Shown here piece by piece: positions 43,101 through 46,100 of a stretch of DNA of 64,000 bases (position 1 is the stretch's first letter; every line of letters begins with the position of its first letter). Source of the stretch: Escherichia coli O157:H7. Lineage in GTDB: Bacteria; Pseudomonadota; Gammaproteobacteria; Enterobacterales; Enterobacteriaceae. The stretch is from assembly GCF_013167455.1 (NCBI RefSeq), contig NZ_CP038328.1; one strand, 5' to 3'. Position numbers: made by a program.

Positions 43101-46100
43101 AGCCAGTGGCGGTATGCCTCGACTGGGCCGATGTGGTTCGCGACGGCATCGTCTGGGATTTCTTCGGCGCGGTCACCATTGTTCGTCGCCATCTCGACAC
43201 GCTCGAGCAGCAATTCGGTCGTCGTTTTAGCCATGCGGCGACTTCATTTCCTCCAGGTACGGACCCGCGTATTTCCATCAACGTGCTGGAGTCTGCCGGG
43301 CTGGAAGTGAGCCATGTGCTGGATGAGCCAACCGCAGTCGCGGATCTGCTGCAACTGGACAACGCCGGTGTAGTGGATATCGGCGGTGGCACTACCGGCA
43401 TTGCCATCGTGAAAAAGGGCAAAGTGACGTACTCGGCGGATGAAGCCACCGGCGGACATCACATCTCTCTGACTTTCGCCGGAAATCGCCGTATTTCGCT
43501 GGAAGAGGCGGAGCAGTACAAGCGCGGTCACGGTGAAGAGATTTGGCCTACGGTGAAACCGGTGTACGAAAAAATGGCGGACATTGTCGCCCGGCATATT
43601 GAAGGGCAGGGCATTACTGATTTATGGCTGGCGGGCGGCTCCTGTATGCAACCGGGCGTGGCAGAACTGTTTCGCAAACAATTCCCGGCGTTACAGGTGC
43701 ATTTACCGCAGCACAGTTTGTTTATGACCCCGCTGGCGATCGCCAGTAGTGGGCGAGAGAAAGCGGAGGGGCTATATGCAAAATGAATTGCAGACCGCGC
43801 TCTTTCAGGCGTTCGATACCCTGAATCTGCAACGGGTAAAAACATTTAGCGTTCCACCGGTGACGCTTTGCGGTCCGGGCTCGGTGAGCAGTTGCGGACA
43901 GCAAGCGCAAACGCGTGGGCTGAAACATCTGTTCGTGATGGCAGACAGCTTTTTGCATCAGGCAGGGATGACCGCCGGGCTGACGCGTAGCCTGGCCGTT
44001 AAAGGTATCGCCATGACGCTCTGGCCATGTCCGGTGGGCGAACCGTGCATTACCGACGTGTGTGCAGCCGTGGCGCAGTTGCGTGAGTCAGGTTGTGACG
44101 GGGTGATCGCATTTGGCGGCGGCTCGGTGCTGGATGCGGCGAAAGCCGTGGCGTTGCTGGTGACGAACCCGGATAGCACGCTGGCAGAGATGTCAGAAAC
44201 CAGCGTTCTGCAACCGCGCTTGCCGCTGATTGCCATTCCAACTACCGCCGGAACCGGCTCTGAAACCACCAATGTAACGGTGATTATCGACGCGGTGAGC
44301 GGGCGCAAGCAGGTGTTAGCCCATGCCTCGCTGATGCCGGATGTGGCGATCCTCGACGCCGCATTGACCGAAGGTGTGCCGTCGCATGTCACGGCGATGA
44401 CCGGCATTGATGCGTTAACCCATGCCATTGAAGCATACAGCGCCCTGAACGCTACACCGTTTACCGACAGTCTGGCGATTGGTGCCATTGCGATGATTGG
44501 CAAATCGCTGCCGAAAGCGGTGGGCTACGGTCACGACCTTGCCGCGCGCGAGAGCATGTTGCTGGCTTCATGTATGGCGGGAATGGCGTTTTCCAGTGCG
44601 GGTCTTGGGTTGTGCCACGCGATGGCGCATCAGCCGGGCGCGGCGCTGCATATTCCGCACGGTCTCGCGAACGCTATGTTGCTGCCAACGGTGATGGAGT
44701 TTAACCGGATGGTTTGTCGCGAACGCTTTAGTCAGATTGGTCGGGCACTGCGAACTAAAAAATCCGACGATCGTGACGCTATTAACGCGGTAAGTGAGCT
44801 GATTGCGGAAGTTGGGATTGGTAAACGACTGGGCGATGTTGGCGCGACATCTGCGCATTACGGTGCATGGGCGCAGGCCGCGCTGGAAGATATTTGTCTG
44901 CGCAGCAACCCGCGTACCGCCAGCCTGGAACAGCTTGTCGGCCTGTACGCAGCGGCGCAATAAATGCCGCGTCTTATCCGGTCTGTGGGATTGCACATGT
45001 AGTGCGGATAAGGCTTCACGCAGCATCCGCTAATAAATAACAACTAACAGGGAGTAAAGGCGATGGGAATTAACGAAATCATCATGTACATCATGATGTT
45101 CTTTATGCTGATAGCTGCCGTTGACAGGATCCTGTCACAGTTCGGCGGTTCTGCTCGTTTCCTCGGTAAGTTCGGTAAAAGTATCGAAGGATCCGGCGGT
45201 CAGTTCGAAGAAGGCTTTATGGCAATGGGCGCACTGGGCCTGGCGATGGTCGGTATGACCGCGCTGGCACCGGTACTGGCTCACGTACTCGGGCCGGTAA
45301 TTATTCCGGTTTACGAAATGCTCGGCGCTAACCCATCGATGTTCGCCGGAACACTGCTGGCGTGCGATATGGGCGGCTTCTTCCTCGCCAAAGAGCTGGC
45401 GGGCGGCGACGTAGCCGCGTGGCTATACTCTGGGTTAATTCTCGGGTCGATGATGGGGCCAACGATTGTGTTTTCCATTCCGGTGGCGCTCGGCATTATC
45501 GAACCTTCTGACCGTCGTTATCTGGCGCTCGGCGTGCTGGCGGGCATTGTGACCATTCCGATTGGTTGTATCGCTGGTGGTCTGGTTGCTATGTACTCCG
45601 GTGTTCAGATCAACGGCCAGCCGGTGGAATTCACTTTCGCCCTGATCCTGATGAACATGATCCCGGTGATCATTGTTGCGATTCTGGTGGCGCTGGGGCT
45701 GAAATTCATCCCAGAAAAAATGATCAACGGCTTCCAGATCTTCGCCAAATTCCTCGTTGCATTGATCACCCTCGGTCTTGCCGCTGCGGTAGTGAAATTC
45801 CTGCTTGGCTGGGAACTGATCCCCGGTCTGGATCCTATCTTTATGGCCCCTGGCGATAAACCCGGTGAGGTGATGCGCGCCATTGAAGTTATCGGTTCTA
45901 TCTCCTGCGTTCTGTTAGGGGCGTATCCGATGGTGCTGCTGCTGACCCGCTGGTTTGAAAAACCGCTGATGAGCGTCGGTAAAGTGCTGAATATGAACAA
46001 CATCGCGGCAGCCGGCATGGTGGCAACGCTTGCCAACAACATCCCGATGTTCGGCATGATGAAGCAGATGGATACCCGCGGCAAAGTCATCAACTGCGCC

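What the first reader, a model, noticed from the sequence alone, without database searches (positions are those of the whole stretch)
44966..45030. REP-like palindromic element embedded inside the eut operon (eutG-eutH spacer)
The 99-bp gap between eutG and eutH is the largest internal spacer in the operon and carries REP-like half-sites (gcgtcttatccgg ... gcggataaggcttcacgcagcatccgc). A REP inside a polycistronic unit can act as an mRNA stability or partial-termination element, which could set differential expression of the upstream enzyme/shell genes versus downstream eutH-A-B-C-L-K-R.
Basis: partly seen in the sequence, partly recalled or inferred. Interest (0 to 1): 0.3.

Follow-up and report, generated by a model that had tools for sequence, protein, structure and literature searches.

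The report
Decayed REP/BIME remnant between eutG and eutH
The short palindromic sequence between the eutG and eutH genes is real, but it is an ordinary and already well-known kind of E. coli intergenic repeat (a REP pair, or BIME), here in a partly deleted and weakened form specific to the O157:H7 lineage.

Summary
The window is E. coli O157:H7. The eutG-eutH spacer (44964-45062, 99 bp) does carry REP-derived sequence. It aligns over 67 nt at 91% identity (E = 2e-17) to the 100-bp BIME-2-type unit found at this junction in nearly all E. coli: z2-type inverted REP, 12-nt linker, y-type REP.

Other strains carry 1, 2 (K-12), 3, 5 or about 6 tandem units, giving spacers of 116-578 bp. The O157 allele, found in 337 of about 5,400 genomes, is a decayed single unit. 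A 16-nt deletion removed the 5' arm of the left REP. The right REP lost 1 nt and carries substitutions.

Predicted RNA folding energy is about half that of an intact unit (-21.9 versus -40.1 kcal/mol) and is not distinguishable from shuffled sequence.

The junction holds no REP in several Citrobacter (27 bp), holds genus-specific REPs in Klebsiella, Citrobacter and Salmonella, and holds an unrelated dispersed repeat in about 6% of E. coli.

No promoter, intrinsic terminator or Rfam family is present. The claim that this is the largest internal spacer is wrong: eutM-eutN is 106 bp.

A residual effect on mRNA stability or on eutG translation termination is possible by analogy but untested, and is probably weak. 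Known biology; low interest.

The parts
44961..44963 (+). eutG stop codon (TAA). The REP-derived sequence begins 2-3 nt downstream.
44966..44986 (+). Remnant of a z2-type inverted REP (gccgcgtcttatccggtctgt). The intact form in other E. coli is GCCGGATGCGACGCTTGCCGCGTCTTATCCGGCCTAC. A 16-nt deletion (GGATGCGACGCTTGCC, junction between 44968 and 44969, bounded by TGCC direct repeats) removed the 5' arm. The terminal CTAC is mutated to CTGT (44983-44986).
   Evidence: Alone it folds to -4.3 kcal/mol versus -22.8 for the intact form.
44987..44998 (+). Short 'S'-type linker between the two REPs (gggattgcacat), identical to the linker in the other E. coli alleles.
44999..45031 (+). y-type REP with 5' GTAG (gtagtgcggataaggcttcacgcagcatccgct). 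Relative to the common form GTAGGGCGGATAAGGCGTTCACGCCGCATCCGCC it has a 1-nt deletion and a C>A at the top of the stem, plus G>T and C>T at its base. 8 of 11 stem pairs are retained.
   Evidence: It folds to -11.0 versus -20.9 kcal/mol. The same mutated y REP occurs in E. coli OkiPb01688 (L058) and as the last unit in Escherichia sp. E1V33 (L009).
44971..45013 (+). Predicted composite RNA hairpin of the remnant. The 3' arm of the left REP pairs with the 5' arm of the right REP (core CUUAUCCG:CGGAUAAG, pair probability about 0.9). The extended form spans 44964-45026 at -21.9 kcal/mol.
45032..45062 (+). A/U-rich tail conserved in Escherichia, with the eutH ribosome-binding site (aataaataacaactaacagggagtaaaggcg; GGGAG at 45050-45054). 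It corresponds to the REP-free 27-32-bp spacer of Citrobacter, Yokenella and Pluralibacter.
45063..46289 (+). eutH, the downstream cistron.

Best explanation
The element is a decayed single BIME-2-type unit: a doublet of inverted REPs (z2 inverted REP, short linker, y REP), which is the common repetitive extragenic palindromic family of E. coli. This repeat array occupies the eutG/eutH junction in essentially all Escherichia and expands and contracts in 100-bp steps. In the O157:H7 lineage it has shrunk to one unit and then suffered three further kinds of damage: a 16-nt deletion between TGCC direct repeats that removed the 5' arm of the left REP, loss of that REP's CTAC, and a 1-nt deletion plus substitutions in the right REP. 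On the eut mRNA the remnant is predicted to form one composite hairpin of about -22 kcal/mol that starts right after the eutG stop codon, followed by an unstructured A/U-rich tail carrying the eutH ribosome-binding site. Its identity and evolutionary origin are shown. I infer that it is mainly a passenger (selfish or neutral DNA) in this strain. At most it retains a weak version of the usual REP effects: a modest barrier to 3'-to-5' exonucleases that could prolong the life of eutS-to-eutG mRNA fragments, and possibly slight interference with termination of eutG translation. It is not a dedicated regulator of the operon.
For: Sequence identity to the BIME unit: 67 nt, 91%, E = 2e-17. Intact 1-, 2-, 3-, 5- and roughly 6-unit arrays with a 100-bp period sit at the same junction. 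A precursor allele has an intact left REP and the same mutated right REP (L058). The allele is present in 337 of 5,403 records, and those listed include O157:H7 strains. Folding: remnant -21.9 kcal/mol (z = -0.96) versus intact unit -40.1 (z = -3.75). Left REP -4.3 versus -22.8; right REP -11.0 versus -20.9. It has the lowest energy per nucleotide among the full BIME-unit Escherichia alleles (-0.239 versus -0.35 to -0.56; only the other decayed allele, the 70-bp L060, is similar at -0.229). The composite helix has probability about 0.9. The y-REP hairpin is supported by compensatory changes in homologues: 4 of 11 pairs changed on both sides, 93.6% paired versus 23-56% in slid controls. The window copy breaks 3 of the 11 pairs. 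Dispensability: a 27-bp REP-free spacer in C. braakii and 5 other Citrobacter genomes, genus-specific REPs in Klebsiella, Citrobacter and Salmonella, and an unrelated dispersed repeat in the same slot in about 6% of E. coli. No promoter-like or terminator-like site in the spacer and no Rfam family. BIME-2 definition and strain-variable copy number: Ton-Hoang et al. 2012, PMC3333891.
Against: No expression data were available, so a meaningful residual function cannot be excluded. A hairpin of -22 kcal/mol is about as stable as a single intact REP, and single REPs have published effects on mRNA decay and translation. Independent occupation of this junction by REPs of different genera could reflect selection for a hairpin there rather than only an insertion hotspot. 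The z-score test against GC-rich shuffles is conservative for short sequences.
Confidence: 0.8

Rival explanations
1. Functional intercistronic mRNA element. The hairpin blocks 3'-to-5' exonucleases and/or causes partial Rho-dependent termination. Upstream eutS-to-eutG transcripts would then accumulate relative to eutH-A-B-C-L-K-R.
For: REPs stabilise upstream mRNA, and BIMEs can attenuate transcription when untranslated (literature summarised). A hairpin of about -22 kcal/mol with core pair probability about 0.9 is predicted, followed by an unstructured A/U-rich stretch. REPs recur at this junction in several genera.
Against: The element is degenerate here, at half the energy of an intact unit and with z = -0.96. 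No terminator-like site is present. The untranslated stretch is only 99 nt and is not C-rich (22 C versus 27 G), which makes it a poor Rho loading site. Copy number varies 0.5-6 units, and the element is replaced or absent in other strains and genera with the same gene order.
Confidence: 0.2
2. Translational down-regulator of eutG. A REP hairpin within 15 nt of a stop codon stalls the terminating ribosome and triggers trans-translation, lowering the yield of the upstream protein (Liang, Rudd and Deutscher 2015, as summarised in PMC12306157).
For: The distance rule is met. REP-derived sequence starts 2-3 nt after the eutG TAA, and the predicted composite hairpin starts at the first spacer nucleotide. 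In intact alleles the z2 inverted-REP stem starts 2 nt after the stop. The rule is described.
Against: In O157 the stop-proximal REP has lost its own hairpin (-4.3 kcal/mol). The outer part of the composite stem is weak, with 4-bp segments interrupted by bulges. The original paper could not be read here, so I could not check whether eutG is on its list. No ribosome-profiling or tmRNA data were available.
Confidence: 0.12
3. DNA-level role. BIME-2 elements are DNA gyrase binding and cleavage sites, so this one could act as a topological relief point in the middle of a long, highly induced 17-gene operon.
For: The locus element is of the BIME-2 type (z2 plus y with a short linker, in tandem arrays). 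Gyrase cleavage of BIME-2 is cited.
Against: The O157 copy lacks half of the z2 REP and has a damaged y REP. Multi-unit arrays would be the better gyrase targets. No binding data are available.
Confidence: 0.07
4. Chance palindrome with no relation to REPs.
For: The only exact inverted repeat is 8 nt, and folding is not better than shuffles.
Against: 91% identity over 67 nt to the BIME unit (E = 2e-17). Positional homology with intact BIMEs in thousands of genomes, plus an intermediate allele.
Confidence: 0.01

Closest known systems
BIME-2 (bacterial interspersed mosaic element, family 2): tandem z2/y REP doublets of E. coli (Bachellier, Gilson and Hofnung; Ton-Hoang et al. 2012, PMC3333891)
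   Same: Same REP types (z2 inverted REP plus y REP with GTAG), a short linker, tandem 100-bp units whose number differs between strains, and an extragenic position at the end of a cistron.
   Different: The window copy is a single, damaged unit. The z2 REP lacks its 5' arm and its CTAC, and the y REP has lost 3 of 11 stem pairs.
Intercistronic REP mRNA stabilisers (malE-malF and hisJ-hisQ type; Newbury et al. 1987; Khemici and Carpousis 2004; cited)
   Same: A REP-derived hairpin between two cistrons of one operon, followed by A/U-rich single-stranded RNA.
   Different: Function is not shown here. The hairpin is a composite of two REP halves with about half the stability of an intact doublet. 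It is not conserved across strains or genera.
Stop-codon-proximal REPs that down-regulate translation (Liang, Rudd and Deutscher 2015; summarised in PMC12306157)
   Same: The REP-derived structure begins 0-3 nt after the eutG stop codon, within the 15-nt limit.
   Different: The stop-proximal REP has lost its own stem in O157. No evidence of ribosome stalling is available.
REPINs (REP doublets forming hairpins, mobilised by RAYT/TnpA_REP; Bertels and Rainey; PMC8049555)
   Same: The intact unit at this locus can fold as one long doublet hairpin (-47.5 kcal/mol). The junction carries genus-specific REP families, as expected for elements co-evolving with a host RAYT.
   Different: The O157 copy lacks features that TnpA_REP activity needs on the inverted-REP side: an intact inverted REP and its CTAC. 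It is probably immobile.

Membership tests
REP (E. coli y type) | Conserved 5' GTAG tetranucleotide next to the palindrome | tested here: met
   GTAG at 44999-45002. Definition.
REP (E. coli y type) | Sequence similarity to the family consensus, and presence in many copies in the genome | tested here: met
   28 nt at 92.9% to the y REP. Other REPs in the window lie at about 15672-15705, 20327-20392 and 31641-31700.
REP (E. coli y type) | Imperfect palindrome able to form a stable stem-loop | tested here: inconclusive
   8 of 11 pairs retained. -11.0 kcal/mol (z = -2.05) versus -20.9 (z = -4.84) for the intact copy. In the full spacer its own hairpin has probability of only about 0.1.
REP (E. 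coli y type) | Extragenic location | tested here: met
   Lies wholly between the eutG stop (44963) and the eutH start (45063).
BIME-2 | A z2 REP and a y REP in inverse orientation separated by a short linker | tested here: not met
   The arrangement and linker are present, but the z2 inverted REP is truncated by 16 nt and its CTAC reads CTGT. It is a remnant, not a complete BIME. Homologous alleles in other strains meet the feature fully.
BIME-2 | Occurs as tandem copies whose number varies between strains at a given locus | tested here: met
   At this locus: 1, 2, 3, 5 and roughly 6 units, giving spacers of 116, 216, 316, 515 and 578 bp. Feature described.
BIME-2 | Bound and cleaved by DNA gyrase | not testable with these tools
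   Literature only.
Intercistronic REP mRNA stabiliser | Stable RNA stem-loop in the transcript that defines 3' ends or decay intermediates | not testable with these tools
   Only a prediction is available: composite hairpin of -21.9 kcal/mol, z = -0.96. No 3'-end data.
Rho-dependent BIME attenuator (Espeli et al. 2001) | Untranslated BIME inside a transcription unit that lowers downstream expression in a Rho-dependent way | not testable with these tools
   The position inside the operon and the untranslated state are met. The effect is unknown. The spacer is short (99 nt) and not C-rich.
Stop-codon-proximal translational REP (Liang et al. 2015) | REP within 15 nt of the upstream stop codon | tested here: met
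   REP-derived sequence begins 2-3 nt after the TAA. Rule as summarised. The stop-proximal REP stem itself is lost.
Intrinsic (Rho-independent) terminator | GC-rich hairpin followed by a U run | tested here: not met
   No terminator-like site in 44964-45062. The only hits are a palindrome inside eutH at 45080-45098, within chance expectation.
Any curated Rfam RNA family | Covariance-model match | tested here: not met
   No hit in the spacer even at E <= 10.

The most novel reading that the evidence does not exclude
BIME copy number at the eutG/eutH junction acts as a strain-specific rheostat for read-through into the distal half of the operon. That half ends with the activator gene eutR (51198-52250), whose induction depends on read-through from the main promoter (from memory: Roof and Roth). 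The copy number is half a unit in O157:H7 and 1 to 6 units elsewhere; an unrelated repeat fills the slot in about 6% of strains, and the slot holds no REP in several Citrobacter. On this reading, decay of the BIME in the O157:H7 lineage would relieve attenuation and raise EutH, EutBC and EutR output. It could thereby strengthen ethanolamine sensing, which EHEC also uses to control virulence genes (from memory: Kendall, Luzader and Sperandio).
Probability: 0.07. Interest if true: 0.45.

Novelty: already known. Interest (0 to 1): 0.12.

Why it matters
It matters little. REP/BIME elements between cistrons are textbook features of E. coli genomes, and their variable copy number between strains is documented. 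This analysis adds three things. First, a locus-specific picture: the eutG/eutH junction is a recurrent landing or expansion site for small palindromic repeats across Enterobacteriaceae. Second, the O157:H7 copy is a decayed remnant. Third, any regulatory claim should therefore be tested by allele swaps rather than assumed. If BIME copy number did tune read-through to eutR, it would link a selfish repeat to ethanolamine-dependent virulence signalling. Nothing here supports that beyond plausibility.

Tried and rejected
(1) An exact-consensus search for the y REP with up to 3 mismatches missed the element itself, because of a 1-nt deletion in its loop. It found two other REPs in the window. A gapped BLAST with the BIME unit solved this.

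(2) Intrinsic terminator or internal promoter in the spacer: none found.

(3) Known RNA family: no Rfam hit.

(4) Significant RNA structure of the spacer as a whole: rejected for this allele (z = -0.43 and -0.96).

(5) Literature linking REPs to eutG, eutH or the eut operon: no paper in the held library.

(6) The key Liang 2015 papers and Kofoid 1999 were not held.

(7) REP annotation in the K-12 RefSeq record: no repeat feature is listed in the copy available. I therefore could not verify my recollection that EcoCyc and GenBank annotate REPs in this spacer.

(8) TnpA_REP-mediated origin of the 16-nt deletion: considered because the left breakpoint follows TGCC, as in the 'iREP I' cleavage site. 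The next base is G, and the C^T step is reported as indispensable. Slippage between the TGCC direct repeats across the hairpin is the simpler explanation.

Full report
**Where we are.** The window matches E. coli O157:H7 chromosomes at 100% identity across eutG-eutH. eutG ends at 44963 (TAA at 44961-44963) and eutH starts at 45063. The spacer 44964-45062 is therefore 99 bp.

**Check of the observation.** The spacer reads atGCCGCGTCTTATCCGGTCTGTgggattgcacatGTAGTGCGGATAAGGCTTCACGCAGCATCCGCTaataaataacaactaacagggagtaaaggcg.

A first consensus search missed it because of a 1-nt deletion. A gapped comparison with the repeat unit found at the same junction in other E. coli gives 67 nt at 91% identity, E = 2e-17, and each half also matches separately. 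The only exact inverted repeat is 8 nt, CTTATCCG/CGGATAAG.

In this window the eutM-eutN gap (41131-41236) is 106 bp, so eutG-eutH is not the largest internal spacer.

**What it is.** In K-12 the same spacer is 216 bp and consists of two 100-bp units. Each unit has four parts:
- an inverted z2-type REP (GCCGGATGCGACGCTTGCCGCGTCTTATCCAGCCTAC)
- a 12-nt linker (GGGATTGCACAT)
- a y-type REP with its 5' GTAG (GTAGGGCGGATAAGGCGTTCACGCCGCATCCGCC)
- a 17-nt inter-unit linker

This is the BIME-2 architecture as defined in Ton-Hoang et al. 2012, where variable tandem copy number between strains is also described.

Other E. coli and Escherichia genomes carry 1 unit (116 bp), 2 (216), 3 (315/316), 5 (474/515) or about 6 (578).

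**How the window allele differs from an intact unit:**
- A 16-nt deletion (GGATGCGACGCTTGCC) bounded by TGCC direct repeats removes the 5' arm of the z2 inverted REP.
- CTAC has become CTGT.
- The y REP has lost one G and carries C>A at the top of its stem, plus changes at its base.

A bovine E. coli strain (OkiPb01688, 115 bp) has an intact left REP together with exactly this mutated y REP. It represents the precursor state. The same mutated y REP is the last unit of a 3-unit array in Escherichia sp. E1V33.

The window allele occurs at 99% identity or more in 337 of 5,403 matching records. The listed examples include O157:H7 strains. Nearly all other records align only downstream of the deletion junction.

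**Structure.** Predicted RNA folding energies:

| Sequence | Window allele | Intact form |
|---|---|---|
| Left REP alone | -4.3 kcal/mol (z = +0.23) | -22.8 (z = -3.70) |
| Right REP alone | -11.0 (z = -2.05) | -20.9 (z = -4.84) |
| Whole unit | -21.9 (z = -0.96) | -40.1 (z = -3.75) |

Per nucleotide, the O157 spacer is the weakest-folding of the full BIME-unit Escherichia alleles; only the other decayed allele, the 70-bp L060, is comparable.

In the thermodynamic ensemble the remnant does not form REP hairpins. It forms one composite hairpin in which the surviving 3' arm of the left REP pairs with the 5' arm of the right REP (core pair probability about 0.9). The y REP's own hairpin has probability about 0.1. 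The A/U-rich tail carrying the eutH Shine-Dalgarno sequence is mostly unpaired.

Across homologous y REPs from this junction in Escherichia and Citrobacter, the canonical hairpin is supported by compensatory substitutions. Four of 11 pairs change on both sides, and 93.6% of cells are paired versus 23-56% for slid controls. The window copy breaks three of the 11 pairs.

**Surroundings and other signals.** No sigma-70-like promoter and no intrinsic-terminator-like site lies in the spacer. No Rfam family matches, even at E <= 10. The spacer is 99 nt with 22 C and 27 G, which does not suggest a Rho loading site.

**Comparative picture.** Spacers were extracted from 48 loci found in the one-genome-per-species collection:

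| Taxon | Spacer | Content |
|---|---|---|
| C. braakii and 5 other Citrobacter genomes | 27 bp | ribosome-binding site only, no REP |
| Yokenella, Pluralibacter | 32 bp | no REP |
| Hafnia, Morganella, Buttiauxella | 34-48 bp | no REP |
| C. sedlakii | 60 bp | one REP |
| Salmonella diarizonae | 67 bp | one REP |
| Many Citrobacter | 119-123 bp | two REPs in the opposite order |
| Klebsiella | 170-216 bp | Klebsiella-type REPs |
| Escherichia | 116-578 bp | BIME arrays |

In about 300-380 E. coli genomes the BIME is replaced, between exactly the same boundaries, by an unrelated 138-bp GC-rich repeat. That repeat is itself dispersed at a median of 6 places per genome. One strain has a different 70-bp decayed allele.

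The junction is thus a recurrent site of occupation by small palindromic repeats. No particular content is conserved, which argues against an essential operon-specific regulatory role.

**How it most likely works.**
- Shown: identity, origin by deletion from an intact unit, loss of about half the folding energy, and dispensability across taxa.
- Inferred: in O157:H7 the element is mostly a passenger.

Published REP/BIME activities are protection of upstream mRNA from 3'-to-5' exonucleases, association with Rho-dependent 3' ends and attenuation, translational down-regulation when a REP lies within 15 nt of a stop codon, and gyrase binding by BIME-2. The remnant still offers a hairpin of about -22 kcal/mol beginning immediately after the eutG stop codon. 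A weak exonuclease barrier or a slight effect on eutG termination therefore remains possible. None of this could be tested with the tools available, and no paper in the held library connects REPs with the eut operon.

**Comparison with known systems and novelty.** The element works like, and descends from, a BIME-2/REPIN-type REP doublet. As it stands it fails the strict definition of a complete BIME because one REP is truncated. It is best called a BIME remnant with one recognisable, damaged y REP. This is already-known biology. The only new details are the O157-lineage decay and the cross-genus turnover at this junction.

**Verdict.** Interest is low.

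Noticed in passing
window 41131-41236 (eutM-eutN spacer): At 106 bp this is the largest internal spacer of the operon in this window. It is more structured than the eutG-eutH spacer: -41.9 kcal/mol, z = -2.97. An 8-bp hairpin (gtgacgtc...gggcgtcac, about 41140-41161) is followed by a T-rich stretch (ctctctcatttttcatttt). It may be an attenuator or stabiliser just after the major shell gene eutM.
   Followed up: partly
L006 265-433; L059 323-491 (E. coli strains 103 and Z1002): In about 300-380 E. coli genomes the BIME at eutG/eutH is replaced, between the same boundaries, by an unrelated GC-rich palindromic repeat (CCCCTCGCCCCTTTGGGGAGAGGGTTAGGGTGAGGGG...CCCTCACCCC). This repeat is itself dispersed, with a median of 6 and up to 13 places per genome. 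From memory it may belong to the RSA/boxC-type small repeats; I did not verify this.
   Followed up: partly
L016, L019, L021, L031, L050 (Klebsiella); L017, L029 and others (Citrobacter); L051 (Salmonella diarizonae), positions just upstream of 1501: The same eutG/eutH junction carries genus-specific REP families, for example CCCGGAGGCG...GTCCGGGCTAC in Klebsiella. C. braakii and 5 other Citrobacter genomes have a REP-free 27-bp spacer. This points to an insertion hotspot or to concerted evolution with each host's own REP/RAYT system.
   Followed up: partly
window 44968/44969 (deletion junction): The 16-nt deletion is bounded by TGCC on both sides. TGCC^TGAT is the 'iREP I' cleavage site of TnpA_REP in vitro (PMC3333891). 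Here the next base is G, so replication slippage seems more likely than transposase action.
   Followed up: partly
window 15672-15705; 20327-20392; 31641-31700: Three other REP elements lie in the window: a single y REP, a REP pair just after the ORF ending at 20316, and a truncated half-REP abutting a full z2-type REP between the convergent ORFs 30582-31625 and 31720-33786. Partial REPs like the one in the finding are therefore not unusual.
   Followed up: partly
L061 (O157:H7 strain PV15-279) 3057-3758 and 12394 onward: In that otherwise identical O157:H7 strain, eutQ is annotated as a pseudogene (internal stop) and phage genes follow eutA, at or near the position where K-12 carries CPZ-55. 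In the window eutQ (38356-39057) is intact and eutB (47701-49062) follows eutA directly.
   Followed up: no
L060 411-480 (E. coli HS-02): This is an independently decayed 70-bp allele of the same spacer. It has the left half of the z2 REP, then unrelated sequence (GTGGGTGTGTTGGCCGGAT). It shows that decay of this BIME has happened more than once.
   Followed up: no
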